64,000 bases of DNA from an uncultured Candidatus Binatia bacterium (lineage in GTDB: Bacteria; Desulfobacterota; Binatia; HRBIN30). Made by a program: the position numbers and the translations under genes. The stretch spans positions 28,629-92,628 of the forward strand of contig CAZGEJ010000016.1 of the NCBI GenBank assembly GCA_964524885.1. Reading direction: 5' to 3'. Positions 1-49,091 of the stretch are shown in pieces (positions within the stretch are counted from its first letter, which is position 1; each line of letters starts with the position of its first letter). The notes beneath the pieces were generated by a model. It saw nothing but the letters and a program-made list of their open reading frames with translations, had not been told where the DNA came from and ran no database searches.

Positions 1-295
1 GATCGGCAACGAGGCCTACATCCAGCAATTGGTGGCGGACGGCTTCATCGTGCGCACGCGCGCCGACGAGCCGACGCGGCACGCGCGCCAGAACGACACC
101 AGCATGCGCGAAGCCGCGCTCGCCAGCTCGGCGCATTTCATCAGCACCGACTACCCCGTGCCCGACCCTGACTTCGGCACCGGCTACATGGTCGAGATCC
201 CCGGCGGCACCCCCGCCGGCTGCAACCCCGTGAGCGCCCCCCCGGAGTGCACCAGCCTCGACATCGAGGATCCCGCCCTGCTGGGAGGATTCTGA
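1..295 (+). CDS. C-terminal fragment of a Ca2+-dependent phosphoinositide-specific phospholipase C-like protein (5' truncated by the window)
   Basis: Frame is open from position 2 (IGNEAYIQQLVADGFIVRTRAD...AHFISTDYP). These motifs resemble the bacterial PI-PLC-C1 family C-terminus. Confidence 0.65.
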   Translation, partial: IGNEAYIQQLVADGFIVRTRADEPTRHARQNDTSMREAALASSAHFISTDYPVPDPDFGTGYMVEIPGGTPAGCNPVSAPPECTSLDIEDPALLGGF

Positions 296-3738: not shown

Positions 3739-4446
3739 ATGAGCGTGCCTCTGTCCCCGCCCGATCTCGCCAACGCCGTCACCTCGTTCTGCACTATCGG
3801 TGCCGGTGTCGTGACCCTGCTGCTCTGCCGTTACGTCGGTGCCCAGCCCGACCGCTGGCTGCGCGCCTATCTCTGCATCTTCATCACCGGCATCCCGACC
3901 CTCGGCTGGCACGGCTGGGGCGGCGAGGCCTGGCGCGTCGCCGACATCGGCACCAACCTGCTGCTCGCCTACGTGCTGCAACTCGCCGTGCTCGGCGACT
4001 ACTACGGCACCGCCTTCCGCCGCCGCTTCACCCTCGTCTCGACCGTCGTCAACGGGCTCGGCATCCTTTGGCTGATCCGCGAAGGGTTGCAGGGCGGTGC
4101 GACCAGTGCACTCCGCCTCGGCGAAGGCGCCAGCTTCCAGATCGGCGAGCTGGTCCTCATCCTCGACGCCTTCGCCATCACCGGACTCTTCTACGCCCGC
4201 CGCCAAACCATCCCGGCCGCCGCCGCGCCGCTGTTGCGCTTGGTCGTCGCCTGCTTCCTCGTCGGCCTGTGGCTCGCCACCGCCGAAGGCAACGTCGTCG
4301 ACGGTCGCATCTGGTCGTATCACGCGCTGTGGCACGTCCTCGGCGCCTTCGGCTTCATCTTCCTCTGGGCCTTCAATCACGTACGCGTCCAAGAGGAAGA
4401 AAGGGCCAAGGGCCAAGGTACAAGGGCCAAGAGCCCGCCCCACTGA
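3739..4446 (+). CDS. CREST-superfamily (alkaline ceramidase-like) multi-TM hydrolase
   Basis: About 7 hydrophobic segments, with NAVTS, TLGWH (S/TxxxH), a conserved D in RVAD, and HALWH (HxxWH) metal-binding motifs. Confidence 0.65.
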   Translation: MSVPLSPPDLANAVTSFCTIGAGVVTLLLCRYVGAQPDRWLRAYLCIFITGIPTLGWHGWGGEAWRVADIGTNLLLAYVLQLAVLGDYYGTAFRRRFTLVSTVVNGLGILWLIREGLQGGATSALRLGEGASFQIGELVLILDAFAITGLFYARRQTIPAAAAPLLRLVVACFLVGLWLATAEGNVVDGRIWSYHALWHVLGAFGFIFLWAFNHVRVQEEERAKGQGTRAKSPPH

Positions 4447-4500
4447 CACAGTCATCGATCCGCATCTTGGCCCTTGGCCCTCAAACCTTGGTCCTAGACC
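4401..4500. repeat. Heptamer-built inverted repeat: (AAGGGCC)x5 ... (TTGGCCC)x4, with variant units
   Basis: Read directly at 4401-4435 and 4467-4494; a second copy lies at 58082-58201. Confidence 0.85.
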
Positions 4501-4517
4501 AACTTGGAGTCGTTTCC

Positions 4518-5963
4518 ATGAAGACCATCCCCGACCACGGCTGGAGTTCGCAAGACATCTTCGCCTCCCTCGAAGCATTCCGCGCCGACGACATGCCGTG
4601 GCGCGAAGGACGCACCTGGGCCTACATCTACGATCCGGGCGCCGAGGCCGAGAGCGTGATCAAGCAGGCCTACACCATGTACATGACGGAAAACGGCCTC
4701 GACCCGACCGTGTTTCCGTCGACCTTGCGCATGGAAACCGAACTCGTCGCCATGGGCGCGGCACACCTCGGGGGTGACGCAAACGTCGTCGGCAACTTCA
4801 CCAGCGGCGGCACCGAAAGCATCATGTGCGCCGTCAAGGCGGCACGCGACTGGGCCCGCGCCCACAAGCCGCACATCAAGGAACCCGAGATCCTGCTGCC
4901 GTCGACGGCACACGCCGCCTTCCAAAAGGCGGCTCACTACCTCTGCCTCAAGGTCGTCGTCGCGCCCGTCGATCCGGTGACCTTCCGCGCCGACCCCGAG
5001 GCCATGCGCCAGGCGATCACCCCCAACACCATCCTCATGGTCGGCTCGGCCATCTCCTATGCCCACGGCGTCGTCGACCCGATTCGCGAACTCGGCGCCC
5101 TCGCCCTCGAACACGGCATCCTGCTGCACGTCGACGGCTGCATGGGCGGCTTCCTGCTGCCGTACTTCAAACGGCTCGGACGCGACATTCCCGACTTCGA
5201 CTTCTCCGTCCCGGGCGTCACCTCGATGTCGATGGACTTCCACAAGTACGCCTTCGCCGCCAAGGGCGCCTCGGTCGTCCTCTACCGCAGCAAGGAATTG
5301 CGCCGCTACCAGATCTACGCCTGCTCCAACTGGACCGGCTACACGATCATCAACCCCACCGTGCAGAGCACCAAGTCGGCCGGCCCACTCGCCGCCGCCT
5401 GGGCCGTGCTGCACTTCTTCGGCGAGGCGGGCTACCTGGAGATCGCCCGGCAAGTGCTCGATGCGACCCGACGCATCGCCGACGCCATCGACCGCATGGA
5501 CGACTTGCGCCTGCTCGGGCGCCCCGACATGAACCTCGTCGCCTTCACCTCCGACACCGTCAGTGTCTTCCACGTCATCGACGAGATGAAGGCGCGTGGC
5601 TGGTACGTGCAGCCGCAGCTCTCCTACCAGAACTCGAAAGAGAACATTCACCTGTCGATCAACCCGGCGAGCGTCCGCTGGATCGACCCGATGCTCGCCG
5701 ACCTCGAGACCTGCGTCGCCGTCGCCAAGACGATGAAGTCGGGCGAACTCGCTGCCGCCGTGAAGGAGATGTTCGGCTCGATCGACGCGGACACGCTGAC
5801 ACCCGACAAGTTCGGCGAGATGCTCGGCATGGCCGGCATTCAGGGATCGACGCTGCCGTCGCGCATGGCGGAGATCAACGAGGTGCTCAACGCGCTGCCG
5901 GTCAAGATCCGGGAGAAGCTGATGACGGAGTACCTCAACGATCTCTACCAGACGCGCGCCTGA
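4518..5963 (+). CDS. PLP-dependent group II decarboxylase family, sphingosine-1-phosphate-lyase-like
   Basis: TSGGTESI, HVDGCMGGF and MDFHKY (PLP lysine) motifs; GGAG RBS before ATG 4518. Confidence 0.85.
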   Translation: MKTIPDHGWSSQDIFASLEAFRADDMPWREGRTWAYIYDPGAEAESVIKQAYTMYMTENGLDPTVFPSTLRMETELVAMGAAHLGGDANVVGNFTSGGTESIMCAVKAARDWARAHKPHIKEPEILLPSTAHAAFQKAAHYLCLKVVVAPVDPVTFRADPEAMRQAITPNTILMVGSAISYAHGVVDPIRELGALALEHGILLHVDGCMGGFLLPYFKRLGRDIPDFDFSVPGVTSMSMDFHKYAFAAKGASVVLYRSKELRRYQIYACSNWTGYTIINPTVQSTKSAGPLAAAWAVLHFFGEAGYLEIARQVLDATRRIADAIDRMDDLRLLGRPDMNLVAFTSDTVSVFHVIDEMKARGWYVQPQLSYQNSKENIHLSINPASVRWIDPMLADLETCVAVAKTMKSGELAAAVKEMFGSIDADTLTPDKFGEMLGMAGIQGSTLPSRMAEINEVLNALPVKIREKLMTEYLNDLYQTRA

Positions 5964-6016: not shown

Positions 6017-8920
6017 GTGAATCGTCGTGCGTTGCAACGGCGGCCGCGGCGGCTGCGCCGCTGGTTCGTCGCCGCGATCCTTCTGCTCACCGGCGCCGCG
6101 GCAGCCTGGCGCTTCGTCGCGCAGTCACTGTCGGTCAACTCCCTCGTACCGTTCGTCGAACGAACCCTCGAGCGCGCCGCCCCCGGCGTCGACCTGGAGA
6201 TCGCCTCGATTTCCCTGCGCTGGGGCGGCTTCCGGCGTGGCGTCGACTTGGCGCTCGAAGGCATCGCCGTGCATACCGGCGGCGCCCGTCTCGATGTCGC
6301 CGAGGTCCTGCTCAAGCTGAGCCTGCGCGCCCTCTTGCACGGCCACCTGGCGCCAGCGCAGATCGAGGTGATCCACCCTACCGGCAAACTGGTACGCGAC
6401 GCCGACGGCAAGATCCGCCTCGTCGCGTTCGGCGCCGGCACCGAACGCCCGGTGCGCGGTCGGGTCTTCGAGGACCTCCTCCGCGACCTCGCCTCCGAGG
6501 GCGATCCGGCGCGCCCGCTGACCTTCCTCCGCTCGATTCGCTTGAGCGGCGCCGAAGTTGAACTCACCGACCTCGTCTACGGCGTCACCTGGAGCGCGAC
6601 GGGCATCGAACTCGATCTCTACCCCGCGGGCACCGACATCGCCGGCGAGCTACGCGCCGACGTGCACATCGAAGAACACACCAGCCATCTCGAAGGTCGC
6701 CTCACGTACGACGGACCGACACGCACCTTCGACGGCGCCCTCGCCTTGACCACGATCCCCGTCGAGGCGCTGCTCGCCCGCGTGCCTTGGCTGCATCAGC
6801 GGCTGCGGCTGCGCAGCGAAGCGGAGGCCGACGTCGGCTTGGCCATCGACCTCGATGGCACCTTGCACCACTTCGATGCCCATTTGAGCCTCTCGGGCGG
6901 GGAGTTGCAGGTTCCCGGCTGGCTCGATGACCCCGAGCCACTGCGGCCATCGAGCTTCGCTGCCGGGTTCGTCGGTGCCGGAGGCTGGCGCGTCGGACCG
7001 ATGGCGCTCGAACTCGGCCCTCCCGACACCGCCAAGCTGCGCATCGACCTCGATGGCAACGTCGCCAATCCCGACAAGGAGGGCGGGCGCGTCGCGCAGT
7101 TGCGCTTGCGCTTGCCGCGACTCGCCGTCGAGGACCTCGTGCGCTACTGGCCCACCGGCGCCATCGACGGCACGCGCAAATGGATCGACCAACACATCAC
7201 CGCGGGCCGCATCGAGGCGCTTGAAGCGCGCGCCGTACTGCGACAACGCCCGAGCGAACCCATCCGCGTCGAGCGCATCGCTGGCGAATTCGACCTGCGC
7301 GATCTCGACGTGCCCTGGCACGATCGCGCTCCCGCCGTCACCGACCTTTCCGGCCACGCCCGTTTCGACCGCACCGATTTGCGCATCGGCGTCGACACCG
7401 CCCGCGTGAAGGGCCTGGAGATCGCCGCCAGCTCGGTCGACCTGCTCCACCTGGACCGCAAGAACGGCGACCTGCAGATCCATCTCGAAGGCCGGGGACC
7501 AGCTTCGACCGCGATGGAGGCGATCGACCTGCACCTGCCCTCGTTCCTCGGCACGGCCGACTCGCGCGGCGAGTCGGAGAACTCGAACATCTCCTTCAAG
7601 GCCGACATCGGCTTCACCATGAAGAAGCGGGTCCGGCTACGGGACTTGACCCTCGACGTCGACGCCCAGGTCGATGCGGTGCGTCTCGACTCCGACCTCG
7701 GCGAGGGCCTGTTCTCGGGCCGCCTGCGCTTCGTCTCGCCCGGCTCGCCCCAACGGCTGCTCGGAGATGTCGACCTCGGCCGCGTCGCCTCGGGCCTCGC
7801 CGTGCTCGGCTGGAACAAGCCGGTGGGCAAGCCGGCGCGCGCGCAGTTCGAGCTGCTGCTCGACGACGGCAAGGTGCGTACGATCGAATCGTTCGACCTG
7901 CAAGCCGACGGGCTGAGCACGCGCGGCTCGGCGCGTTTTCATCAAGACGGCCGCGGATTGCAGACCCTCGACCTGCGCTCGCTGCGCAGCGGCCGCACCA
8001 ACGTGGATCAGGCACGCGTCACCTGGACCGACAACGGCCTGCAAGTCCACCTCGAAGGAGGTGACGTCGACCTCGTTCCCTTGCGGCAGCGGCCGACTTC
8101 CTTGGCGACACACCGCGACCGCCCGCGGCTCGACGTCGAAGCCAAGAAGATCGACCGCCTGTTTCTCAACGAAACCGGTTGGCTGGCGGACGTCTCCGGC
8201 TCGCTGCAACGGGAGGGCAAGGACTGGCAACGACTGCAGATCACCGCCGCCATCCCCGATGCTTTCGTTTCGGCTCGCGCCGCACGACAGCCCGCACTGC
8301 GCCTGTCGCTGTCGCCCTCGAAGTACGCCGGCCTCCTCGACTTGCGACTCACCTCCGAGGACTTCGGCGGCTTGCTGCGCGCCCTGCACTGGAGCGACGA
8401 CGTCGACGGCGGCAGTCTGATCGTGCAAGGAGCGGATGTCGGCCGTCAGTTCCAACGTGGTCGACTGAGCGTGCGAGCCAGCGATTTCCACGTCGGCGAC
8501 GCCCCCTGGGCCGTGCGCTTGCTGACTCTCGCCTCCCTCGAGACCATCGTCAACTTGATGCAGACGAGCGCGTTGCACTTCGAGGAACTCGAAGGCGACC
8601 TGGAATTACGCGATGACCTCTTGCTCGTGCACGACGTGCTCGGACACGGTTCCTCGCTCGGCTGGAGGGCCCACGGCTCGGTGAACCTCGCCGCGTCGAC
8701 GCTCGACCTCGGCGGCACCTTGATCCCGGCGTACACCGCCAACCGTCTGCTCAACGCCGTGCCGGTGCTGCGCGAAGTGCTCGTCGGCGAGGGCATCCTG
8801 TCCGTCGACTACCGCATCAACGGCACCCTGGCGGCTCCGGTCATCGATACCAATCCGATGAGCGCCATCACCCCGGAGGCATTGCGCGACATCTTCGACC
8901 CCGGCCGTCGCCGCCGCTGA
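6017..8920 (+). CDS. AsmA-like / YhdP (DUF3971) envelope-spanning protein
   Basis: Single N-terminal TM, long beta-rich body, and an AsmA-like C-terminus (GSVNLAASTLDLGGTLIPAYTANRLLNAVPVL...YRINGTLAAP). Confidence 0.75.
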   Translation: MNRRALQRRPRRLRRWFVAAILLLTGAAAAWRFVAQSLSVNSLVPFVERTLERAAPGVDLEIASISLRWGGFRRGVDLALEGIAVHTGGARLDVAEVLLKLSLRALLHGHLAPAQIEVIHPTGKLVRDADGKIRLVAFGAGTERPVRGRVFEDLLRDLASEGDPARPLTFLRSIRLSGAEVELTDLVYGVTWSATGIELDLYPAGTDIAGELRADVHIEEHTSHLEGRLTYDGPTRTFDGALALTTIPVEALLARVPWLHQRLRLRSEAEADVGLAIDLDGTLHHFDAHLSLSGGELQVPGWLDDPEPLRPSSFAAGFVGAGGWRVGPMALELGPPDTAKLRIDLDGNVANPDKEGGRVAQLRLRLPRLAVEDLVRYWPTGAIDGTRKWIDQHITAGRIEALEARAVLRQRPSEPIRVERIAGEFDLRDLDVPWHDRAPAVTDLSGHARFDRTDLRIGVDTARVKGLEIAASSVDLLHLDRKNGDLQIHLEGRGPASTAMEAIDLHLPSFLGTADSRGESENSNISFKADIGFTMKKRVRLRDLTLDVDAQVDAVRLDSDLGEGLFSGRLRFVSPGSPQRLLGDVDLGRVASGLAVLGWNKPVGKPARAQFELLLDDGKVRTIESFDLQADGLSTRGSARFHQDGRGLQTLDLRSLRSGRTNVDQARVTWTDNGLQVHLEGGDVDLVPLRQRPTSLATHRDRPRLDVEAKKIDRLFLNETGWLADVSGSLQREGKDWQRLQITAAIPDAFVSARAARQPALRLSLSPSKYAGLLDLRLTSEDFGGLLRALHWSDDVDGGSLIVQGADVGRQFQRGRLSVRASDFHVGDAPWAVRLLTLASLETIVNLMQTSALHFEELEGDLELRDDLLLVHDVLGHGSSLGWRAHGSVNLAASTLDLGGTLIPAYTANRLLNAVPVLREVLVGEGILSVDYRINGTLAAPVIDTNPMSAITPEALRDIFDPGRRRR

Positions 8921-11278: not shown

Positions 11279-12127
11279 ATGAGCGACCACATCGAGGGAT
11301 ACATCCCCCTGTCGGTGATCGTCCCCTTCTACAACGCGATGCCGCATCTGGCGGCCTGCGCCGCATCGCTGCGACGACAACGGGAACGCTTCCCCGAGAC
11401 TGAAGTGCTCTTCGCCGATGCGGATTCGACGGATGATTCGAGTGCCTTCCTGACGGATTGCTTTCCCGAGTTTCGCCTCGTGCGCTCGGCAAGCCGCAAT
11501 GCCTACGCCGCCCGGAATCGTGCCGCCGAGTCGGCCAAGGGAACGATCTTGGCCTTTACCGATGCGGACTGCACCGTCGATTCGGAGTGGTTGAGTAGCG
11601 TACAGCGAGCCGTCGAGCATGGCGCTGACTTGGTGATCGGTCCGGTCGATGCGCCCCCGGGCGTGTCGTCCGCATTATGCGGCGTGCATGCCTACGAGAA
11701 CCGACGCATGGAAGAGATGTGTCGTGCGGGGGGACCATGCATCACCTACGCCTACACCAACAACTTCGCCATGCGTTCCGAGCTGTTCCGTTCCCTGGGA
11801 GGTTTCGATGAATCCCAGAGCCGCGGTGGCGACAGTGAACTGGCCTTGCGAGCTTTGGCGGCAGGCACGGCCACCATGGTGTACGCCCGCGGCATGAGGG
11901 TGGTCCATCTCGAAGTGTCGACGCTGCGCCAATGGTGGCTCAAAAAATTCCTTTACGGCCGTAGTCGCACGGCGCGCCGCACCAACCCTTCCGTCGTCGC
12001 TTACCGCAGCGCCCGCGTCGGGGGTGGAGACGCCGCGACGCTGGCGGCCCTCGGTCTTGGGCGCCTGTTCTACGAGGCGGGCAGCTTGGTGGGATGGTTC
12101 GCCCGGCGCCGGACGCCCTTGCGCTGA
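11279..12127 (+). CDS. Glycosyltransferase family 2
   Basis: SVIVPFYN, ARNRA, FTDADC and GGFDE motifs. Confidence 0.9.
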   Translation: MSDHIEGYIPLSVIVPFYNAMPHLAACAASLRRQRERFPETEVLFADADSTDDSSAFLTDCFPEFRLVRSASRNAYAARNRAAESAKGTILAFTDADCTVDSEWLSSVQRAVEHGADLVIGPVDAPPGVSSALCGVHAYENRRMEEMCRAGGPCITYAYTNNFAMRSELFRSLGGFDESQSRGGDSELALRALAAGTATMVYARGMRVVHLEVSTLRQWWLKKFLYGRSRTARRTNPSVVAYRSARVGGGDAATLAALGLGRLFYEAGSLVGWFARRRTPLR

Positions 12128-12216
12128 CATGCCACGACGCATGACCTGCGAGGTAATCCATCCCCATGTCCGCGTCGGTCCGAACCCGCAGCCGCTCCCT
12201 GGACGCCTCGGTAGAA

Positions 12217-12307
12217 GTGCGGCACCGGCGCCAAGTCGTTGAAAAACAAAGTGCCGGGGACGGGGGTCGAACCCGTATGGGCGAATGCCCGAGGGATTTT
12301 AAGTCCC
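12217..12307. repeat. att direct repeat, distal copy (3' part of tRNA-Leu plus 35 bp downstream)
   Basis: 91 bp identical to 24345-24435. Confidence 0.95.
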
Positions 12308-12419
12308 CTGGAGATGAGCCGAAATCGGACTGAAAACGACGGAAATGGACGCTGGGTGCGGGTTTCCGCGATTCCCGTATAGCTCCCGGAGTCCAAATCA
12401 ATCCAGCCCCGTCGCCCCA

Positions 12420-12442
12420 AATTGCGGAAGAATTGCGGAAGT
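12420..12442. promoter_or_regulatory. Putative integrase arm-type site, (AATTGCGGAAG)x2
   Basis: 23 bp identical to 24296-24318; a degenerate inverted copy is at 12363-12374. Confidence 0.7.
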
Positions 12443-12653
12443 TACAACTTGTGATCCGAGGGCAGCCGCTTCGCCACGCACGCCCCCCGAGTCGTCACCT
12501 CGACGGCGCTCCATGCGCCCTCCCCTCCCAGCCCTCCCCCGCGGGCGTGGCCAGCAGCCGTTGCTTCGCGGACGGTGTAGAATGGTGACTTGGGGGGCCG
12601 GGAAAGAACGCGGGACCCGGGCCGCGACAAGAGAATAGGAGTGGAAGTCCAAT

Positions 12654-13527
12654 ATGGCGAAACGTGGCACCTTAACTCATCGAAAGACGCGCAGGCTGGC
12701 GCGACTGCTCGGAGGCATCCCCCTGCCTTGTGCCCTCGGCGTCGCTGAGGCGCTCTGGCAAGCGACCATCATGCATGCGCCGGACGGAGCGATTGGGAGG
12801 TTATCGGACGAGTCGATAGCCGAAGAGATGTGGTGGGACAGCGACCCTTCCATTCTCGTAGCGGCGCTCGTCGATTCCGGCTTTCTCGATCGTCATGACG
12901 AGCACAGGTTGCTTGTACACGGGTGGTCGGAGCATGCCGACCCAGGAGTCCATATGGCGCTCGCCCGAAAGCGGGCATTCTTCGCCGACGGTTCGACGCC
13001 CAATTTCAACCGCCTGCCGTCACCAGAACGGCGAGCCGCCGCCGAGTTCTATAGCCGCGCCCCCGTGCTGGCGTAATGCAACCCCATGCGCACACTACCT
13101 GACGCCGTGCGCTCAGCACCGATATTCGTGCGCACGCAAGCAACATCCGTGCGCACGCCGTGCGCACGCAACGAACATCCGTGCGCTTGCCGTGCGCACG
13201 GAACTCCGCACCGTGCGCACGGCAAGCACACGCCGTGAGCGAATCCCCACCCCACCCCACCCCACCCCCCCTAAAGAAAAAGAGTCTAACCCGGTGGCGC
13301 CTCTACTAGCCCGTGACGGTACTAGGGCGCCCGCCGAGCCGGAGTCGACGCGCCACCCGGTCCAGCTCTGCTCTTCGACGATTCCGGACCCGAGCACCCA
13401 GGGACGCGAGCTTACGACGCCCGACCTAGTCGGAGTGCCTGAGGCGCCCCCCCTGCGGGGTTTGAGCAAGATGCACCTGCTCCGAGTAGTCGCGGGCGCC
13501 CTTGTCGCTCGGCCGGGTCGGCACTGA
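12654..13527 (+). pseudogene. Phage-type replication initiator (helix-turn-helix N-terminus), split by a +1 frameshift
   Basis: 12654-13076 resembles the N-terminus of phage replication proteins (THRKTRRLARLLG..ALW..APDG..SDESIAE..W..D...V.ALVDSGFLD..HGWSEH). The +1 frame continues through the iteron region and a PTPPHPTPPKEKE linker to a stop at 13527. Confidence 0.55.
13086..13243. repeat. Cluster of palindromic CGTGCGCACG repeats (putative iterons/origin)
   Basis: Perfect copies at 13127, 13148, 13159, 13191 and 13212; degenerate copies near 13086, 13106, 13180 and 13234. Confidence 0.75.
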
Positions 13528-15364
13528 CCGCCTGGGGAGGACGCCCGCTATCGCGTGACCTCGCGCCGTTGACGACGGTCGCCCCGACTCGCCACGCTCG
13601 TGCGTGCCGCACCCGCCGCGCCCCCAGACTCGACCGAACCCCGCCCAGGGGCTCCCAGCGCCCGCCAGGCGCCACGAACGCAGCAGAACGACCCAACCGT
13701 AAGCCGAGAACCAAAGGACGCCCACGGGCCATCCTGGCGCGCCCTGGGGCCATGCTCGCGGTCGGCCACCGCCTCGAAGGCGGACCGAGCGCCCCCGCAT
13801 CGGCCCGCGATGCTGCTGGACTCGTCGTCCCGCTGCAGCGACAGAACCACGGGACGAGCATCCCGCGACAGCGACGATTTGGCCCCAGGGGCGGCCGGCG
13901 ACATCTCGCGCAGTCGTTCGACTGGCGCGGCCTTCCCCCGACGCCCGAGACCTCGGCGTCTCCACGTCGCTCGAAACCCGCACAAGACCCCGAGACTAGG
14001 ACCCTGGGGGCCAATGTCGGACCAGGAGCCATGGTGGCGCGTCTGAGAGGCGCTTGGACGCTCGCAACCACGCGGCGTGCAGCCGGTGCACCGGACCCGT
14101 CGCCCTAGGGGCCGGCGCTCGCCGAAATCCGCGGCTGGACCGAAGCCCCCCGGGCGAGGCGCGCGCCCCGGGACGTCGAGACCCTCGCCACAAGCTACGG
14201 CCGGCACATACGCTCTGCGCGGCACGACGATGCTTCGCGTCCGTCGCTCGACCCCCATCTGCGGCGACCTGACAGCCCGGGCGCGAGATCCGCGAGACAG
14301 GTTCGATCGCCTGGCGGCAGACACCCGGAAGCATCTCGGCGACTAGTCGGAGGTTTGGCTGCGACTTCGCACCGCTTAGTCGTCTACTCATAAGCGGCGA
14401 GAGGCCGCCCTCGGGAAGCCCGACTTATCCCTGAGCCACGCGGGCGCATGGTGAGCCACCGCGTGCGGCAAGCGCCCCCAGAGCGCCGCTGGGGGCCAGC
14501 GCCCCAGGTCGTTGCCGCAGGCAGGTTGCGGCTGCACCAGGACGACGCACCCCCGAGTCTGAGGACGACCGTACCCATGGGGGTTCGGCGAAATAAGGGC
14601 ACCCATGGGGGGTCGGAGGCAAAATCGATCGCCGGAGCCTCGTGTTGGTCGTCGCCCACCACCGGCCGTGCGTCGATGCAGCGGCCTATCCGTGAGGCGG
14701 CGACCTCCCTCATCCGGTCGTCCGCAACTCAGCTCAGCAACCTCGGTGCACCAGAGGAAAGCGCGCGGGTGATGCGCCGAGAGCCCACAGACCAGCGCGC
14801 CACGGCGAGGCGTCGCGTCGCCGTGGCGTAGACGAACGATGGATGACGAGGCGCACGAAATTTTGCGGCACGGGACGCCCTGACCCGTGCCCACGCGCAA
14901 CCTGGCGGCGACCATCGGCTCGCAATTCGCGCCCGTCGGCGGCGCCGACTTAGACCTGCCAGCGCAAGCCCCGCTGCGCGAGCCGCCGCTACGCGCCGAC
15001 GATCTGTGGTGATCTTGGTCAACGCCGAACTCGGCGTGCCTCCTCGACCGACTCCCCAGCCACCCGCCGACGCCTTTAGCGTTCGGCATTTTGCCCGCCG
15101 TCAATGCGTGGGCACCAAGCCCTTGGAAGATCGAGAGTTTCTCTCCATGCCCGGCATATGCCGGCATAGTTGCTGCCGTCATTGCGCGGCTTGGATCCAC
15201 CGCCTCCCACCTGGGCCGGGTAGGTAGCAGGCTCTTCGCTCCTGGGAAGCTCGCTCGAACAAAGCGCCGGGGCGCGCATCCGATCTCGCCTCGCACCACG
15301 TCGGGCAATCGGTGCGCACCGCGATCACCCGCCGAGTACGGCCGCATGGGGGTCAATCGCCCGA

Positions 15365-15383
15365 TTGATTGCAATGCAATCAA
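15365..15383. promoter_or_regulatory. Inverted repeat TTGATTGCA-A-TGCAATCAA, probable FitAB autoregulatory operator
   Basis: Perfect 9-bp IR 32 bp upstream of fitA; the TGCAATCA half-site resembles the Neisseria FitAB half-site TGCTATCA. Confidence 0.65.
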
Positions 15384-15415
15384 CGCCTAATCTCCAGACG
15401 AACGGAGATCGCGCC

Positions 15416-15670
15416 ATGGCCAGCATCACTATCCGCAACCTCGAAGACGACTTGAAGCACCGACTGCGCGTCCGCGCCGCCGAGCACGGACGTTCGATGG
15501 AGGAGGAGGCGCGCGAAATTCTCCGGCACGCGATGACCGAACCCGCCCCGCCGCGCAACCTGGCCGCCGCCATCCGCTCGCGCTTCGCGCCTCTCGGCGG
15601 CGTCGATCTCGACCTGCCGGCACGCGACCCGCTGCGCGAGCCGCCACGATTCTCCGACGAGCCGTCATGA
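15416..15670 (+). CDS. fitA: FitA-like ribbon-helix-helix antitoxin
   Basis: MASITIRNLEDDLKHRLRVRAAEHGRSMEEEAREIL. Confidence 0.9.
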   Translation: MASITIRNLEDDLKHRLRVRAAEHGRSMEEEAREILRHAMTEPAPPRNLAAAIRSRFAPLGGVDLDLPARDPLREPPRFSDEPS

Positions 15671-16083
15671 TCGTGCTCGACACGAACGTCGTCTCGGAAC
15701 TGCTGCGGCCGGTTCCGGCGCCGCAGGTCGAGGCGTGGCTAGCGGCGCAGGACGGCGCGCAGGTGTACTTCACCGCGGTGGGCGAGGCCGAACTACGCTA
15801 CGGCGTGGCTGTCCTGCCGGCAGGCCGACGCCGCGCCGCGCTTGCCGCCGCCGTCGATGCCATGCTGGAGGAAGATTTCCGCGACCGCATCCTGTTCTTC
15901 GACCGCGGCGCCGCCCTCGCCTATGCGGCCATCGCCGCCGACCGACGCGCCGCCGGCCGCCCCATCAGCCAATTCGATTGCCAGATCGCCGCCATCTCCC
16001 GCGCCCACGGCGCCGCCGTGGCCACCCGCAACATCGACGACTTCGCCGGTTGCGGTATCGCCGTCATCGACCCGTGGGCCTAG
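15667..16083 (+). CDS. vapC: PIN-domain toxin (FitB/VapC)
   Basis: MIVLDTNVVSE, E in GEAEL, D..IAA and ATRN..DF motifs; ATGA overlap with the antitoxin. Confidence 0.92.
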   Translation: MIVLDTNVVSELLRPVPAPQVEAWLAAQDGAQVYFTAVGEAELRYGVAVLPAGRRRAALAAAVDAMLEEDFRDRILFFDRGAALAYAAIAADRRAAGRPISQFDCQIAAISRAHGAAVATRNIDDFAGCGIAVIDPWA

Positions 16084-16126
16084 ACCAGCGCGGCGCGACG
16101 AGACCTCGCCTTAAGGAATCGCCAAC

Positions 16127-17746
16127 ATGAAGTGGATCGCTCCGTCAGAAAAAGACGCTGCCTCGACCTCGCTGGAAAAGCGTCTGTGGGACGCCGCCGA
16201 CCAGTTCCGCGCCAACTCCGGCCTCAAGGCGCAGGAATACTCCGGTCCGATCCTGGGCTTGATCTTCTTGCGCTTCGCCGAGGTGCGCTTCGCCGCCCTG
16301 CGACAGAAGCTCGAACGAGCCGGCGCGACGTCCCGGCGCGGCAGCCGTGTCGACGAACCCGCCGCCTACCACGCCGAGAACGTTCTCTACCTCGCCCCAG
16401 AAACGCGCTTCGACCACCTGCTGACCCTGCCCGAAGCGGCCGACATCGGCGCCAAGGTCAACGCGGCGATGCGGGAGATCGAGAAGCACAACCCGCAGCT
16501 CGCCGGCGTGTTGCCCAAGACCTTCAACCTCTTCACCAGCACACTGCTGAAGGATCTCCTCAAGAAGGTCTCCGAAATTCCCGCATCGGTCGATTTCGAC
16601 GCCTTCGGCCGCATTTACGAGTACTTCCTCGGCGAGTTCGCACGCACGGAAGGACAGAAGGGCGGCGAGTTCTACACCCCCGCCAGCATCGTCAAGCTAC
16701 TCGTCGAGGTGATCGAGCCCTACCACGGTCGCATCCTCGACCCGGCCTGCGGCTCGGGTGGTATGTTCGTGCAGTCGGCGCGCTTCGTCGCCGAGCACCA
16801 GAAGAACCCCGCCGCCGAGCTGGCGATTTGCGGCGTCGAGAAGACGGACGAAACCGGGCGGCTCTGCCGCCTGAACCTCGCCGTGCACGGATTGGAGGGC
16901 GACATCCGCCACGGCGGCAACGTCAACAGCTACTACGACGACCCGCACGCGGCGACCGGCCAGTTCGACTTCGTGCTCGCCAATCCGCCCTTCAACGTCA
17001 ACGCGGTGGACAAAGAGCGGCTCAAGGACATGGTGGGCGACGGACGCCGCTACGCCTTCGGCCTACCGAAGACCGACAATGCCAACTACCTGTGGATCCA
17101 GCTCTTCCACTCGGCGCTCAACGCCCAGGGCCGCGCCGGCTTCGTCATGGCCAACTCCGCCTCCGACGCCCGCTCCAGCGAGCAGGAGCTGCGGCAGAAG
17201 CTGATCGAGGCACGCGCGGTGGATGTGATGGTCGCCGTCGGCTCCAACATGTTCTACACGGTGACGCTGCCGTGCACGCTGTGGTTCCTCGACCGCGGCA
17301 AGGCCAAGAGCAATCGCGCCGACACCGTGCTGTTCATCGAGGCCCGCCACATCTACCGGCAGGTAGACCGTGCCCATCGCGACTGGACGCCGGCGCAGAT
17401 CGGCTTCCTGGCCAACCTGGTACGCCTCTATCGCGGCGAAGCGCCCGACCTGACCTTAGGCGGCGACGAGACGGTGGCCAAGCTGAAGGAAGTCTTCGGC
17501 AAGAAGCCCGCCTACGCCGACGTGCCCGGCCTGTGCAAGGCCGCGACGCTGAAGGAGATCGAGGCCCAGGGCTGGTCGCTCAACCCCGGCCGCTACGTCG
17601 GCGTCGCGCCGGGCGAGGAAGTGAGCGACGAGGACTTCAAGGCGCAGCTAGAAGCGCTGAACGAGGAACTGGAGGCACTCAACGCCGAGGCGCGGACGCT
17701 GGAGCAGACCATCGCCGCCAATGTAGCGGGGATTCTGGAGGCGTGA
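16127..17746 (+). CDS. hsdM: Type I restriction-modification DNA methyltransferase subunit M
   Basis: [28 protein letters not shown] and NPPFN motifs. Confidence 0.96.
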
Positions 17747-17748
17747 GG

Positions 17749-18900
17749 ATGTCCGAGCTTCGACAACCAGTGTGGATCAATGCCGAGGACGTTCCGCCGC
17801 TCCCTGAAGGCTGGCGGTCTCTGCCAACGTCAGAGGCATGCATACAACTGAAGCCGGGGAAACTGTTCGACTCTAAAACTGTGTCCGAGAGCGGAAGCGT
17901 CCCAGTCCTGAACCAATCAGAGGCTGGTTTCCTTGGCTATCACGACGAGGAGCCCGGCGTCACTGCTTCACCTGAGGCCCCCGTCGTCACATTCGCGAAC
18001 CACACATGCGCGATGCGTCTGATGAAGCAGCCGTTCTCCAGCATCCAAAACATATTCCCGAAAATTGGTAAGCCGGGTGTCACGGATACTGTCTATTTCT
18101 ACTACGCAACTCTTGGGCGAGTGGGGCTGTCTGACTACAAGGGACATCATCCAGTATTCCGCCAGGCGCACATTCCGATTCCACCCCTCCCCATCCAGCA
18201 ACGCATCGCGGGCATCCTGTCGGCCTACGACGAGCTGATCGAGAACAGCCAGCGGCGCATCAAGATTCTGGAGTCGATGGCCCGCGCCCTCTACCGCGAG
18301 TGGTTCGTCCACTTCCACTTCCCCGGCCACGAATCCGTCCCCCGCGTCCCGTCCCCCCTCGGCGACATCCCGCAGGGGTGGGAGGTAAAGAAGCTCGATC
18401 AGGTCGCTGAAATCAAAGGCGGCAAGCAACTGGCAAAAGAGAGCATTCACGAGACAGGCGATTTTCCTGTCTTCGGCGGCAACGGCATCCAGGGCTACTC
18501 CGAAAAGGCGACTCACCAAGGATTTGTGATCGCATTTGGACGGGTTGGTGCTTATTGTGGCTCGATCCATTGGTCGTACGACGGAGCTTGGCTCAACAAC
18601 AACTCATCGTCAGTCGTGCCGACGGGGTACGATGAATTGATTCTGCATCACTTGCTCAATTTTAACTTCACCACACTGCGAGGCGGGGCTGCCCAGCCGT
18701 TTATCTCGAACAGCGCTCTGGCGAGCGTCGATTTGGTTTTCCCGTCTGACGTGCTCGCCGGGAAGTTCTGCTCGATCGTGAAGCCACTCCGCCAGCAGCA
18801 AGTAAGGCTCCAGCGCCAAATCCAGAACCTCCGTCGCACTCGTGACCTGCTGCTGCCGCGCCTGCTCTCTGGGCAGATCGATGTGGAAGCCATCGAATGA
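17749..18900 (+). CDS. hsdS: Type I R-M specificity subunit S
   Basis: Two lower-GC TRDs separated by PPLPIQQRIAGILSAYDELIE; ends LRRTRDLLLPRLLSG. Confidence 0.93.
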   Translation: MSELRQPVWINAEDVPPLPEGWRSLPTSEACIQLKPGKLFDSKTVSESGSVPVLNQSEAGFLGYHDEEPGVTASPEAPVVTFANHTCAMRLMKQPFSSIQNIFPKIGKPGVTDTVYFYYATLGRVGLSDYKGHHPVFRQAHIPIPPLPIQQRIAGILSAYDELIENSQRRIKILESMARALYREWFVHFHFPGHESVPRVPSPLGDIPQGWEVKKLDQVAEIKGGKQLAKESIHETGDFPVFGGNGIQGYSEKATHQGFVIAFGRVGAYCGSIHWSYDGAWLNNNSSSVVPTGYDELILHHLLNFNFTTLRGGAAQPFISNSALASVDLVFPSDVLAGKFCSIVKPLRQQQVRLQRQIQNLRRTRDLLLPRLLSGQIDVEAIE

Positions 18901-19850
18901 CGTCCAGTAGGAACCTGAGCAAGCTGGAGCGCGTTCCGCTGCGCGAGGCATGGAAGCATGAGGCGGGCGACTTTACGCCGTGGCTCGCGCAAGCCGAGAA
19001 CCTCGACGCGCTCGCTCAGGCACTCGGCGTGAGCGAGCTTGAACTTGCTTCTACCGAGCAGCGGGTCGGGGACTTCAAGCTCGACATCCTCTGCACCGAT
19101 GGCGACCAACAGGTCATCATCGAGAACCAGCTCGCGGAGACCGACCACAAGCACCTCGGCCAGATCTTGGCCTACGCCGCCGGTGTTGGCGCGCGCAAGG
19201 TGATTTGGGTGGCCGAGTCCTTTCGGCCCGAGCACGCGGCGGCATTGCGGTTCCTGAATGACAACACGACGGCTGACCTGAGCTTCTTCGGCGTGCAAGT
19301 GGAACTCTGGCGCATCGGTGACTCGCCGATGGCGCCGAAGTTCGAGGTGGTCGTGAAGCCCGATGATTGGGTCAAGACGGGTCGGGAGCAGGCACGGGCC
19401 GCTTCGTCGGCCTCGCCGACCAAGCAACTGCAGCTCAAGTTCTGGGCGGCACTCATCGACCGCCTCGCGAAGAACGCACCGCAGATTCGCCCGCAGAAGC
19501 CACGACCCCAGCATTGGCTGAACAACTCGATCGGCCGTTCCGGGTTCGGCCTCAACATCACAGCCAACACCCGCGACGAACGGCTCGGTGTCGAGCTGTG
19601 GATACCAGGCGAGGAGGCCAAGGCTCGCTTCGCTGCGCTGCTGACGCAGAAGGAGAGTATCGAGCGCGCGCTCGGGTTCGAACTCGAATGGCAAGAGCTG
19701 CCTGACGCCAAGGCGTGCCGGATCGTCACGTTCTATCCCAATGCATCCATCCAAGATGAGGCTCGCTGGGACGAGTACCTCCAGTGGCTGGAGCAGCGAT
19801 TGGTGGTGATGGACCGGGTGCTTCGTCCCATCGTGAAAGCGTTGCCATGA
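18897..19850 (+). CDS. DUF4268 protein with an N-terminal PD-(D/E)xK/NucS-like nuclease fold
   Basis: LREAWKHEAGDFTPWL, DILC..IIENQL..TDHKHLGQ, and a DUF4268-like C-terminal half. Confidence 0.75.
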   Translation: MTSSRNLSKLERVPLREAWKHEAGDFTPWLAQAENLDALAQALGVSELELASTEQRVGDFKLDILCTDGDQQVIIENQLAETDHKHLGQILAYAAGVGARKVIWVAESFRPEHAAALRFLNDNTTADLSFFGVQVELWRIGDSPMAPKFEVVVKPDDWVKTGREQARAASSASPTKQLQLKFWAALIDRLAKNAPQIRPQKPRPQHWLNNSIGRSGFGLNITANTRDERLGVELWIPGEEAKARFAALLTQKESIERALGFELEWQELPDAKACRIVTFYPNASIQDEARWDEYLQWLEQRLVVMDRVLRPIVKALP

Positions 19851-29818: not shown

Positions 29819-30706
29819 TCAACGTCCGAGCACGCGGTGCAACAACTCGGGATCGTCGGTGTACATGCCATCGACGCCATCGGCGATGAGCTGCCGCATC
29901 GTCGCCTCGTCGTTGATGGTCCACGGGTGCAGCTTGAGGCCGAAGCCATGCACCTTGGCGACGAACTCGGGGGTGACCATGGCGCGCGGCGGCTGGACCA
30001 TCAGGGCCGGCGGCACGTAGGGCGGCGTCATGCCAGGCTCCGCCACGCCGAGGGTGACGAGTTCCTGGCTGGTGAAGGCGGTCAGCATTTGCGGCTGCAA
30101 TTCGCGCACGCGCCCGACGGGGCGGCGGTCGAACGACGCGAGCACCGTGCGGTCGACGGCGTCGTAGCGCTCGAGCAAGGCGACCACCTGATCGGCGATT
30201 TCGGGCACGACCTGCTTGATCTCGATGGCCAACGGCACGTTCGGAAAGGCCGCCAGCGCTTCCTCCAGTGTCGGGATCGTCAAGCCACGCCCGCGCCACG
30301 GATAGGTGGCGCCACCGTCGCGTGTCCAGCGATAGCCGGCGTCGAGCGCCTTGATCTGGGCCAGCGTCATGTCGCGCACGGTACCGGTTCCGTCGGTGGT
30401 GCGGTCGACCGTGGCGTCGTGCAATATGACGACGACGCCGTCGCTGGTGGCGTGGACGTCGAACTCGATGACGTCGGCACCGACGCGCAGGGCGTTTTCG
30501 TAGGCGACCAACGTATGTTCGGGGGCGAGGCGGCCACCGCCGCGGTGGGCGATGTTGACGAAGCGGTCGCCGGTGAGCACCGAGGCGGGATCGACGCCGC
30601 CACCGCCGTCGTCATCGCCGCAACCGGCGAGAGCGACGACGAGCGCCAGCAGCAAGGGCACCGTCCAACGTGGCCGGCGACGACAGGGTTCAGCTTTCGA
30701 CGACAT
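29819..30706 (-). CDS. Glycerophosphodiester phosphodiesterase (lipoprotein)
   Basis: LAGC lipobox; IAHRGG, EFDVH, HD, IEIK, WTIN and DGMYTD motifs. Confidence 0.9.
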   Translation of the reverse strand: MSSKAEPCRRRPRWTVPLLLALVVALAGCGDDDGGGGVDPASVLTGDRFVNIAHRGGGRLAPEHTLVAYENALRVGADVIEFDVHATSDGVVVILHDATVDRTTDGTGTVRDMTLAQIKALDAGYRWTRDGGATYPWRGRGLTIPTLEEALAAFPNVPLAIEIKQVVPEIADQVVALLERYDAVDRTVLASFDRRPVGRVRELQPQMLTAFTSQELVTLGVAEPGMTPPYVPPALMVQPPRAMVTPEFVAKVHGFGLKLHPWTINDEATMRQLIADGVDGMYTDDPELLHRVLGR

Positions 30707-42054: not shown

Positions 42055-42057
42055 CGG

Positions 42058-43020: not shown

Positions 43021-43033
43021 GACGCCAGTCTCC

Positions 43034-45648: not shown

Positions 45649-45708
45649 AATCCTCGTTCGTCCACCCGTCGGACCTGCTGTGTTCGCTTAGACCCCTGCT
45701 CTGCCCCA

Positions 45709-46695: not shown

Positions 46696-46716
46696 CCTCC
46701 GATCCTCCGAGCGCCA

Positions 46717-48201: not shown

Positions 48202-48233
48202 CCCTTCCTTGGCTCCCGAATCAGGCCCGCACC

Positions 48234-49067: not shown

Positions 49068-49091
49068 CGACCTCCTCGGAGCGCGCTGCGA

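What the first reader, a model, noticed from the sequence alone, without database searches (positions are those of the whole stretch)
3739..5963. Ceramidase-like CREST protein next to an S1P-lyase-like enzyme: candidate bacterial sphingolipid catabolic operon
Seen: S/TxxxH, D and HxxWH CREST motifs in a ~7-TM protein, immediately upstream of a PLP enzyme with SPL-like GGTES/HVD..GGF/DxHKY motifs. Known: alkaline ceramidase and S1P lyase are steps of eukaryotic sphingolipid breakdown, and bacterial SPLs exist (Symbiobacterium, Legionella, Burkholderia). Inferred: the pair degrades ceramide or sphingoid lipids from prey or host membranes. A sphingosine kinase is not visible in this window.
Basis: partly seen in the sequence, partly recalled or inferred. 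Interest (0 to 1): 0.68.

Follow-up and report, generated by a model that had tools for sequence, protein, structure and literature searches.

The report
Bacterial ceramidase-like and lyase gene pair
An uncultured biofilm bacterium carries a membrane enzyme related to human alkaline ceramidase next to an enzyme related to sphingosine-1-phosphate lyase, and the same pairing recurs in several bacterial phyla, which suggests an undescribed bacterial route for breaking down ceramide-like lipids.

Summary
Window 3739-4446 (+) encodes a 235-aa seven-helix membrane protein. Window 4518-5963 (+) encodes a 481-aa soluble PLP enzyme; its real start is ATG 4518.

The membrane protein belongs to a small bacterial family that matches vertebrate ACER3 profile-to-profile (hhalign 95%, E 3e-8). 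The family keeps every Zn-site residue of ACER3: T54/H58 on TM2, D69 on TM3, H195/H199 on TM7, plus W198.

The PLP enzyme groups with S1P lyases by sequence (StSPL E 3e-96; MfnA 1e-27) and by fold (top 21 Foldseek hits are all SPLs). It keeps the PLP-binding and SPL-specific residues.

Among 73 loci that encode the membrane protein, the lyase gene is the only neighbour that recurs across phyla. It is adjacent in 14 loci, on the same strand, in both gene orders.

Two findings weaken the "S1P" reading. Two residues of the phosphate pocket are changed throughout this lyase clade: H129 to Asp and A103 to Tyr. No kinase gene lies in the window.

The pair is probably a ceramide-like lipid amidase plus a long-chain-base lyase. 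The substrate head group and the source of the lipid remain open. I rate it a new variant of a known kind, interest about 0.6.

The parts
3739..4446 (+). MEM: a 235-aa seven-helix inner-membrane protein, a bacterial alkaline-ceramidase-like (CREST) putative Zn hydrolase
   Evidence: AF2 pLDDT 95.4 with 7 helices. The family of 76 has invariant T54, H58, D69, H195, W198 and H199. hhalign of the family profile against the ACER3 profile gives 95.1%, E 3e-8. Pfam Ceramidase scores E 0.037 for the window protein alone, and 16 of 76 members match at E<=0.01.
3898..3945 (+). Codons for T54 (3898-3900), H58 (3910-3912) and D69 (3943-3945): the TxxxH motif on TM2 and the Asp on TM3
   Evidence: These align with ACER3 S77, H81 and D92. 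Their roles in ACER3 are given in PMC6303388. Codons checked.
4321..4335 (+). Codons for H195, W198 and H199: the HxxWH motif on TM7
   Evidence: These align with ACER3 H217, W220 and H221. H217 and H221 bind Zn, and W220 contacts the ceramide carbonyl in the docking model. Codons checked.
4447..4517 (+). 71-bp spacer between the two genes, with GGAG at 4506-4509, 8 nt before ATG 4518; no terminator-like site
   Evidence: Sequence read. The terminator scan found nothing between the genes.
4518..5963 (+). SPL-like: a 481-aa soluble PLP enzyme of the sphingosine-1-phosphate-lyase family, belonging to a clade with an altered head-group pocket
   Evidence: PDB phmmer: StSPL 3e-96, Burkholderia 9e-81, human 1e-80, MfnA 1e-27, GAD 1e-15. 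Foldseek: the top 21 hits are all SPLs, TMq up to 0.82. Residue mapping.
4623..4703 (+). Codons for Y36 (4623-4625, at the StSPL A103 position), Y38 (= Y105), N59 (= N126) and D62 (4701-4703, at the StSPL H129 position)
   Evidence: Y36 and D62 are present in 120/120 close homologues and in all 10 of the MEM-adjacent lyases tested. Characterised S1P lyases have A/T and H/Q/R at these positions.
5133..5264 (+). Codons for D206, C208, H242, K243 (the PLP Schiff-base lysine) and K249 (= StSPL K317)
   Evidence: All are conserved. The equivalents of K317 and C276 are absent from the decarboxylase MfnA.
6017..8920 (+). YhdP/AsmA-like 967-aa envelope protein, 53 bp downstream on the same strand; probably co-transcribed here, but not part of the conserved pair
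   Evidence: Pfam YhdP 9.7e-32. It is found downstream only in the closest relatives, L001 and L002.

Best explanation
The two genes form a two-step module for taking apart a ceramide-like lipid, that is, an N-acylated long-chain amino alcohol.

Step 1. MEM sits in the inner membrane. It uses a Zn ion held by H58, H195 and H199, with a water activated by D69 and T54, to hydrolyse the amide bond. This releases a fatty acid and a free long-chain base. The charge distribution of its loops predicts that the N-terminus and the Zn site face the periplasm.

Step 2. The base reaches the cytoplasm. There the soluble PLP enzyme binds it as an external aldimine, displacing K243, and cuts the C2-C3 bond by retro-aldol cleavage with help from Y38 and K249. 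The products are a fatty aldehyde and a two-carbon amine.

Shown here: homology of both proteins, conservation of their catalytic residues, and a conserved same-strand gene pair.

Inferred: the substrate class, the order of the two steps, and the topology.

Open: whether the base must first be phosphorylated by an unlinked kinase, and whether the lipid is the cell's own or foreign.
For: MEM:
- It has seven helices.
- The family profile matches the ACER3 profile at 95.1%, E 3e-8. N12, G51, T54, H58, D69, H195, W198 and H199 lie on ACER3 N36, G74, S77, H81, D92, H217, W220 and H221.
- The roles of those ACER3 residues are taken from PMC6303388.
- Distant family members match Pfam Ceramidase over nearly its full length, and one exceeds the gathering score.

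SPL-like:
- It is far closer to S1P lyases than to decarboxylases in sequence and in fold.
- It scores below the NCBIfam cut-offs for MfnA and GAD.
- The PLP-binding residues and the SPL-specific Y105, K317 and C276 equivalents are conserved. MfnA lacks them.

Linkage:
- In 73 MEM loci the lyase is the only neighbour that recurs across phyla.
- It is adjacent in 14 loci, on the same strand, with gaps of 11-71 bp and in both gene orders.
- The MAG labels of these loci span Myxococcota, Spirochaetales, Nitrospirales, Hyphomonadaceae and Hydrogenedentota.
- No terminator-like site lies between the genes.

Topology: K+R counts average 10.3 on the odd loops plus C-terminus and 2.35 on the N-terminus plus even loops, across 76 sequences.
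Against: - No biochemical data exist for either family.
- The window protein alone is below Pfam's Ceramidase threshold (13.9 against 32.5 bits).
- Sequence and profile searches of the PDB with MEM found nothing significant.
- The fold search returned only generic seven-helix hits. ADIPOR1 scored TMq 0.56 at rank 37, and ACER3 was not in the top 50.
- About 80% of MEM loci have no lyase within 10 kb.
- Four lyase-clade loci taken from long contigs had no MEM nearby.
- The lyase pocket carries Asp and Tyr where S1P lyases bind phosphate.
- The ACER N-terminal Ca site is absent.
- The predicted topology is the reverse of ACER3's.
Confidence: 0.55

Rival explanations
1. The pathway is like the eukaryotic one and uses an unlinked kinase. 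MEM makes the free base, a sphingoid-base kinase encoded elsewhere in the genome phosphorylates it, and the PLP enzyme is a true S1P lyase yielding phosphoethanolamine.
For: The enzyme is closest to proven S1P lyases in sequence and fold. Y105, N126, K317 and S353 (here Thr) of the phosphate site are retained. The Burkholderia lyases cleave S1P with Q or R at the H129 position, so that position tolerates change.
Against: An acidic Asp at the H129 position and a bulky Tyr at the A103 position are invariant in the clade and are seen in no characterised S1P lyase. No kinase domain lies in the 64-kb window. No third gene is conserved beside the pair.
Confidence: 0.25
2. The pair acts on a non-sphingoid N-acyl amino lipid, such as an ornithine, lysine or serine-glycine lipid or an N-acyl amino acid. 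MEM is then a general lipid amidase or esterase. The PLP enzyme decarboxylates or otherwise converts the released amine.
For: CREST enzymes also act on esters and other lipids. The Asp at the H129 position is shared with the decarboxylase MfnA. The NCBIfam MfnA model gives 234 bits. Many MEM carriers, such as Anaerolineae, are not known sphingolipid producers (own knowledge). A fatty-acid hydroxylase weakly like OlsE lies in the window.
Against: The SPL-specific residues Y105, K317 and C276 are conserved and are missing from MfnA. The MfnA and GAD models score below their cut-offs. Sequence and fold rank all SPLs ahead of every decarboxylase. Only the Ceramidase family is hit in Pfam.
Confidence: 0.15
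3. The two genes are not functionally coupled. Their adjacency reflects shared descent inside one lineage plus a few transfers. MEM is a PAQR-like membrane-homeostasis protein and the lyase works on its own.
For: Most pair-bearing loci fall in one MEM clade. Most MEM genes and most genes of this lyase clade are unpaired. MAG taxonomy labels can be wrong.
Against: The pair occurs in both gene orders and in at least three further MEM subclades (L044, L059, L066), always on the same strand with short gaps. No other neighbour recurs in this way. Chance adjacency of two rare single-copy genes is very unlikely.
Confidence: 0.08

Closest known systems
Alkaline ceramidases (human ACER3, PDB 6G7O; Pfam PF05875; CREST superfamily)
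   Same: Seven transmembrane helices. S/TxxxH on TM2, Asp on TM3 and HxxWH on TM7 align residue for residue. The conserved N in TM1 and G before the S/T also align.
   Different: Sequence identity is about 16%, and the window protein is below the Pfam threshold. It lacks the N-terminal ~29 residues that hold the Ca site and the C21-C196 disulfide. It has Thr where ACER3 has Ser77. Its predicted topology is N-out/C-in, against N-in/C-out for ACER3. Its activity is untested.
Bacterial 'hypothetical groups 1 and 2' of the CREST paper (Pei et al. 2011, PMC3146951)
   Same: They are bacterial seven-helix CREST proteins that group with alkaline ceramidases and have unknown function.
   Different: I did not test whether the present family is one of those groups. 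That paper found no informative gene neighbourhood, whereas a conserved lyase partner is seen here.
Symbiobacterium thermophilum S1P lyase (StSPL, PDB 3MAD) and the other characterised SPLs (human SGPL1, yeast Dpl1p, Burkholderia S1PL2021/2025, Legionella LpSPL)
   Same: 42% identity to StSPL over 414 residues. TMq is 0.81-0.82. The equivalents of K311, D274, H201, H310, G168/T169, C276, Y105, N126 and K317 are all kept.
   Different: H129 is replaced by D62 and A103 by Y36, invariantly across the clade. The first ~70 residues of StSPL are absent. There is a ~60-residue C-terminal extension with a conserved LPxRMAxINExLNALP motif.
Eukaryotic sphingolipid exit pathway (ceramidase, sphingosine kinase, S1P lyase, fatty aldehyde dehydrogenase)
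   Same: Homologues of the first and last committed enzymes lie side by side.
   Different: No kinase is linked. An aldehyde dehydrogenase lies near the pair only in L001 and is 52 kb away in the window. In eukaryotes the genes are not clustered.
Pseudomonas aeruginosa sphingosine-responsive genes (the neutral ceramidase CerN from own knowledge; sphBCD from PMC11398299)
   Same: They represent bacterial handling of ceramide and sphingosine.
   Different: They use a soluble secreted neutral ceramidase and oxidoreductase-type proteins, which are not homologous to either gene here (own knowledge, not tested).

Membership tests
CREST superfamily / alkaline ceramidase family (PF05875) | Seven transmembrane helices | tested here: met
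   The AF2 model has pLDDT 95.4 and helices at 7-32, 38-60, 63-88, 91-117, 135-153, 163-180 and 194-229.
CREST superfamily / alkaline ceramidase family (PF05875) | Conserved S/TxxxH (TM2), Asp (TM3) and HxxxH (TM7), which form the Zn/water site | tested here: met
   T54, H58, D69, H195 and H199 are invariant in 76 sequences. They align to ACER3 S77, H81, D92, H217 and H221.
CREST superfamily / alkaline ceramidase family (PF05875) | The window protein itself passes the curated Pfam score | tested here: not met
   It scores 13.9 bits, E 0.037, against a cut-off of 32.5, and only residues 189-223 match.
CREST superfamily / alkaline ceramidase family (PF05875) | Significant homology at the family level | tested here: met
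   hhalign of A2 against the ACER3 profile gives 95.1%, E 3e-8, over 197 columns. Sixteen of 76 members hit PF05875 at E<=0.01, the best at 4.6e-8. P0292 scores 34.6 bits, above the cut-off.
CREST superfamily / alkaline ceramidase family (PF05875) | Three-dimensional Zn geometry and fold match to ACER3/ADIPOR | tested here: inconclusive
   Foldseek gave only generic seven-helix matches with no E<=0.001. ADIPOR1 5lxg scored TMq 0.56 and SID1 0.55.
ACER subfamily (eukaryotic alkaline ceramidases) | N-terminal Ca-binding segment (D19-W-C-E-x-N24 and A32-E-F34) with the C21-C196 disulfide | tested here: not met
   The alignment starts at ACER3 residue 30. The window protein has only 6 residues before TM1, and E33 aligns to the non-conserved D9.
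ACER subfamily (eukaryotic alkaline ceramidases) | Topology with a cytoplasmic N-terminus, so the Zn site is on the cytoplasmic side | tested here: not met
   The positive-inside count predicts N-out/C-in: K+R 10.3 against 2.35. ACER3 is N-in. This is a prediction only.
ACER subfamily (eukaryotic alkaline ceramidases) | Hydrolysis of ceramide to a sphingoid base and a fatty acid | not testable with these tools
   This needs an enzyme assay.
Sphingosine-1-phosphate lyase (EC 4.1.2.27) | Fold-type I PLP enzyme closest to SPLs within the group II decarboxylase-like family | tested here: met
   phmmer gives StSPL 326 bits, human 275, MfnA 100 and GAD 61. The top 21 Foldseek hits are all SPLs.
Sphingosine-1-phosphate lyase (EC 4.1.2.27) | PLP-binding residues (StSPL K311, D274, H201, H310, G168, T169, C276) | tested here: met
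   The window has K243, D206, H132, H242, G98, T99 and C208, and they are conserved in 119-120 of 120 homologues.
Sphingosine-1-phosphate lyase (EC 4.1.2.27) | SPL-specific substrate and catalytic residues Y105, N126 and K317 | tested here: met
   The window has Y38, N59 and K249, invariant in the clade. MfnA lacks the Y105 and K317 equivalents.
Sphingosine-1-phosphate lyase (EC 4.1.2.27) | Phosphate-pocket residues: H (or Q/R) at StSPL 129 and a small residue (A/T) at 103 | tested here: not met
   The window has D62 and Y36, as do 120/120 close homologues and all 10 of the MEM-adjacent lyases tested. The reference residues come from McLean et al., Table S2, and PMC10243590.
Sphingosine-1-phosphate lyase (EC 4.1.2.27) | Cleavage of S1P to hexadecenal and phosphoethanolamine | not testable with these tools
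   This needs an enzyme assay.
Group II amino-acid decarboxylases (MfnA, GAD) | Passing the curated equivalog scores | tested here: not met
   TIGR03812 MfnA scores 234.2 against a cut-off of 299.4. TIGR01788 GAD scores 101.6 against 380.4.

The most novel reading that the evidence does not exclude
The pair is a self-sufficient, kinase-independent route. A periplasm-facing intramembrane ceramidase frees a long-chain base. A lyase clade whose phosphate pocket has been rebuilt (Asp for His129, Tyr for Ala103) then cleaves the unphosphorylated base directly into a fatty aldehyde and ethanolamine. That would be a new enzyme activity, a sphingoid-base lyase, and the first defined bacterial sphingolipid catabolic pathway.
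Probability: 0.2. Interest if true: 0.8.

Novelty: new variant of a known kind. Interest (0 to 1): 0.6.

Why it matters
How bacteria break down sphingolipids is largely unknown, whether the lipids are their own (Myxococcota, Bacteroidota and some Alphaproteobacteria make them) or come from hosts and prey. No bacterial intramembrane ceramidase of the CREST type turned up in the literature searches I ran.

Bacterial CREST proteins related to ceramidases have been 'hypothetical' since 2011, with no informative gene context. A conserved pairing with an S1P-lyase-family gene gives them a concrete, testable function.

The pairing also highlights a very large lyase clade: more than 7,900 database proteins match it, and the closest 120 are 70-85% identical across phyla. 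Its altered head-group pocket suggests a substrate other than S1P. Both proteins are small and could be expressed and assayed with standard methods.

Tried and rejected
- Sequence (phmmer) and profile (hmmsearch) searches of the PDB with MEM and its family found nothing significant. SID1 appeared only at E about 2.
- hhalign of the family against the single ACER3 sequence was weak (16.6%). It became significant only against an ACER3 profile.
- Foldseek with the MEM model returned GPCRs and rhodopsins and cannot separate seven-helix folds.
- I looked for a MEM-lyase fusion protein. The long ORFs that span both genes are out-of-frame upstream extensions, not fusions (frames checked by hand).
- I looked for a third conserved gene or a kinase near the pair and found none. 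An SDR lies near MEM in 6 loci and a TonB-dependent receptor in 5 Halieaceae-type loci. The YhdP-like gene follows only in the closest relatives.
- The contexts of four unpaired lyase genes share no common theme.
- The promoter scan found nothing, and sigma-70 consensus is not expected to be informative here.
- RNA evidence is thin. A few short metatranscriptome contigs, mostly 95-99% identical, lie on the lyase gene, and none crosses the gene junction.
- Seven literature searches found no description of the pair.
- The organism could not be named. The nearest named relatives of MEM are Myxococcota MAGs, and the DNA occurs in biofilm and drinking-water metagenomes.
Full report
**What is in the sequence.** The region holds three co-oriented ORFs with the high third-position GC typical of genes in this window.
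- MEM, 3739-4446, 235 aa.
- A PLP enzyme whose mechanical ORF starts at TTG 4068. Its homologues all begin at the Met encoded by ATG 4518, which has a GGAG 8 nt upstream. This gives 481 aa ending at 5963.
- A 967-aa YhdP/AsmA-like protein, 6017-8920.

The gaps between them are 71 and 53 bp, and no terminator-like site lies between the genes.

**The membrane protein.** On its own it barely touches Pfam Ceramidase (E 0.037, 13.9 bits against a cut-off of 32.5, C-terminal 35 residues only), and it finds nothing in the PDB by sequence.

It belongs to a compact family. A word-indexed search found 114 proteins. An exhaustive HMM search of 1.84 billion cluster representatives found only 128 clusters at E<=1e-3. 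Nearly all are unnamed or called 'hypothetical protein'.

In an alignment of 76 members, N12, T50, G51, T54, H58, D69, N73, D87, H195, W198 and H199 are invariant. Sixteen of the 76 match PF05875 at E<=0.01 (best 4.6e-8) and no other family is matched. More distant members match the model over nearly its full length, and one exceeds the gathering score.

I recalled the human ACER3 sequence from memory and checked it: residues 2-244 are identical to PDB 6g7o_A. A profile of 37 diverse family members, compared with a profile of 23 vertebrate ACER3 sequences, gives hhalign probability 95.1%, E 3e-8, over 197 columns. The match covers window residues 6-222 and ACER3 30-239. The narrower 76-sequence profile gives 73.6%.

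The alignment pairs these residues:
- N12 with N36
- G51 with G74
- T54 with S77
- H58 with H81
- D69 with D92
- H195 with H217
- W198 with W220
- H199 with H221

In the ACER3 crystal structure, H81, H217 and H221 hold the Zn, and S77 and D92 hold the attacking water. In the ceramide docking model, W220 contacts the ceramide carbonyl (PMC6303388).

AlphaFold2 gives a confident seven-helix bundle (pLDDT 95.4). The residues sit on helices 2, 3 and 7, as they do in ACER3.

The fold search was not informative. It returned only generic seven-helix hits, with ADIPOR1 at TMq 0.56, SID1 at 0.55 and nothing at E<=0.001.

The family differs from the ACERs in three ways:
- The N-terminal Ca-binding segment is missing.
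- Thr replaces Ser77.
- The positive-inside rule, averaged over 76 sequences, puts the N-terminus and hence the Zn site on the periplasmic side (K+R 10.3 against 2.35). ACER3 has a cytoplasmic N-terminus.

**The PLP enzyme.** A PDB sequence search ranks the S1P lyases first: StSPL 3e-96, Burkholderia 9e-81, human 1e-80, Aspergillus 3e-77, yeast 2e-76, Legionella 4e-52. MfnA follows at 1e-27 and GAD at about 1e-15 (the Aspergillus entry 8cmx is named). The NCBIfam MfnA and GAD equivalog models score below their cut-offs.

An AF2 model (pLDDT 79) gives 21 S1P-lyase chains as the top Foldseek hits, with TMq up to 0.82. MfnA and GAD follow.

I mapped the window protein onto StSPL using residue roles from PMC10243590 and McLean et al., Table S2.
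- The PLP-binding residues are kept: K243, D206, H132, H242, G98/T99 and C208.
- The SPL-specific residues are kept: Y38 (= Y105), N59 (= N126) and K249 (= K317).
- The decarboxylase MfnA, whose recalled sequence I verified against 3f9t, lacks the Y105, K317 and C276 equivalents.
- Two head-group residues differ. H129 is Asp62 and A103 is Tyr36. This holds in 120 of 120 close homologues and in all 10 of the MEM-adjacent lyases tested, including ones only 47-52% identical to the window protein.

Characterised S1P lyases carry H, Q or R at position 129 and A or T at position 103. An acidic residue and a bulky one in the phosphate pocket argue against a phosphate monoester head group. They fit a smaller, uncharged or cationic one.

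The clade is very large: more than 7,900 proteins match at E<=1e-20, and the closest 120 are 70-85% identical across phyla. It lacks the first ~70 residues of StSPL and has a conserved ~60-residue C-terminal extension.

**Linkage.** A scan of one genome per species returned 79 loci that encode MEM relatives. tblastn and neighbour clustering over 73 full-length loci show that the lyase is the only neighbour recurring across phyla. It is adjacent in 14 loci including the window, always on the same strand, with gaps of 11-71 bp. The order is MEM then lyase in nine loci and lyase then MEM in four (L007, L010, L031, L066); in a fourteenth locus (L057) the clustered lyase-like ORF lies about 2 kb from MEM on the opposite strand.

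In a rough NJ tree the pairs fill 9 of 11 tips of the Myxococcota-type clade. They also appear singly in a Hyphomonadaceae locus and a Hydrogenedens locus, and in a Nitrospirales locus (L044) that dropped out of the tree but shows the adjacency. This pattern fits functional coupling and movement of the pair as a unit.

The coupling is not obligatory. About 80% of MEM loci, Anaerolineae above all, have no lyase within 10 kb. Four lyase genes examined on long contigs have varied neighbours and no MEM.

The YhdP-like gene follows the pair only in the closest relatives. No kinase domain was found in the window, and no third gene is conserved beside the pair.

**Interpretation.** The best-supported reading is a two-enzyme module. 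An intramembrane Zn amidase deacylates a ceramide-like lipid, and a PLP retro-aldolase splits the released long-chain base.

The homology, the catalytic residues and the synteny are shown. The substrates, the topology and the flow between the two steps are inferred.

Three questions stay open:
- whether the rebuilt pocket lets the lyase take the free base directly, which is the most novel reading;
- whether the lipid is not a sphingolipid at all.

The source of the lipid, own membrane or prey or host, cannot be addressed from sequence. The DNA comes from biofilm and drinking-water metagenomes. The nearest named relatives of MEM are Myxococcota MAGs, a phylum known to make sphingolipids (and own knowledge).

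**Novelty.** Seven full-text searches found no description of this pair or of a characterised bacterial CREST ceramidase. The 2011 CREST paper lists bacterial ceramidase-like groups of unknown function and reports no informative neighbourhood for them. Annotation pipelines already call some members of the lyase clade 'sphinganine-1-phosphate aldolase'.

I therefore rate it a new variant of a known kind. It is a bacterial, operon-encoded counterpart of two steps of the eukaryotic pathway, with a divergent lyase pocket, no linked kinase and an apparently inverted ceramidase topology.

Noticed in passing
window 15365-24467: A likely mobile island: a FitA-like RHH antitoxin plus a PIN toxin (15365-16083), a type I restriction-modification system with hsdM (16127-17746), hsdS (17743-18900), a DUF4268 protein (18897-19850) and hsdR (19784-23032), then a tyrosine integrase (23250-24467).
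   Followed up: partly
window 41128-50245 and 50856-55600: Two paralogous Tad/Flp pilus gene sets lie in tandem on the minus strand. The first has TadB/C-like T2SSF x2, a T2SSE ATPase, a ParA-like response regulator, TadG-like, a secretin, RcpC, TadE and a prepilin peptidase. The second is shorter: T2SSF x2, the ATPase, RcpC and TadE.
   Followed up: partly
window 34073-41131 (-): A giant 2,352-aa protein with Big_1 (bacterial Ig-like) repeats and a weak alpha-2-macroglobulin MG3 hit lies directly upstream of the first Tad cluster.
   Followed up: no
window 29-295, 29819-30706, 31658-32443, 33089-34060: Other lipid-related genes are scattered in the window: the C-terminal end of a Ca-dependent PI-PLC that runs off the window start, a glycerophosphodiester phosphodiesterase, a fatty-acid hydroxylase family protein (weakly OlsE-like, 96 bits against a cut-off of 475), and a DUF192-PEMT fusion. 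Myxobacteria have FA2H-like hydroxylases tied to sphingolipid formation (PMC10002949), but I did not test this gene for that role.
   Followed up: partly
window 4447-4517: The spacer between MEM and the lyase holds four CTTGG copies within 48 nt, where the window average is 1.7 per kb. The motif is absent from the equivalent spacers of six related loci, so it is either a local regulatory site or chance.
   Followed up: partly
window 5775-5960 (lyase residues ~420-481): The lyase clade has a conserved C-terminal extension with the motif LPxRMAxINExLNALPxxxRExLLxEYLNxL. The extension has no counterpart in MfnA, and the StSPL fragment I aligned stops before it; its possible role (membrane or partner contact) is unknown.
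   Followed up: no
L044 10768-12195 and L066 8508-9935: The MEM-adjacent lyases of MAGs labelled Nitrospirales and Hydrogenedens are 75% identical to each other, but only 47-48% identical to the window protein. This suggests horizontal transfer of the pair or mis-binning of the contigs.
   Followed up: no
window 12100-15400: A stretch of about 3.3 kb has only ORFs with weak codon bias and no Pfam match. It lies just upstream of the toxin-antitoxin and R-M island.
   Followed up: partly
L048, L053, L064, L070, L075 (about 10.66-13.2 kb in most): In Halieaceae-type gammaproteobacterial loci the MEM gene converges on a TonB-dependent receptor gene of about 800 aa. An SDR lies near MEM in six other loci. 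These are alternative partners for MEM and may hint at an imported substrate.
   Followed up: no
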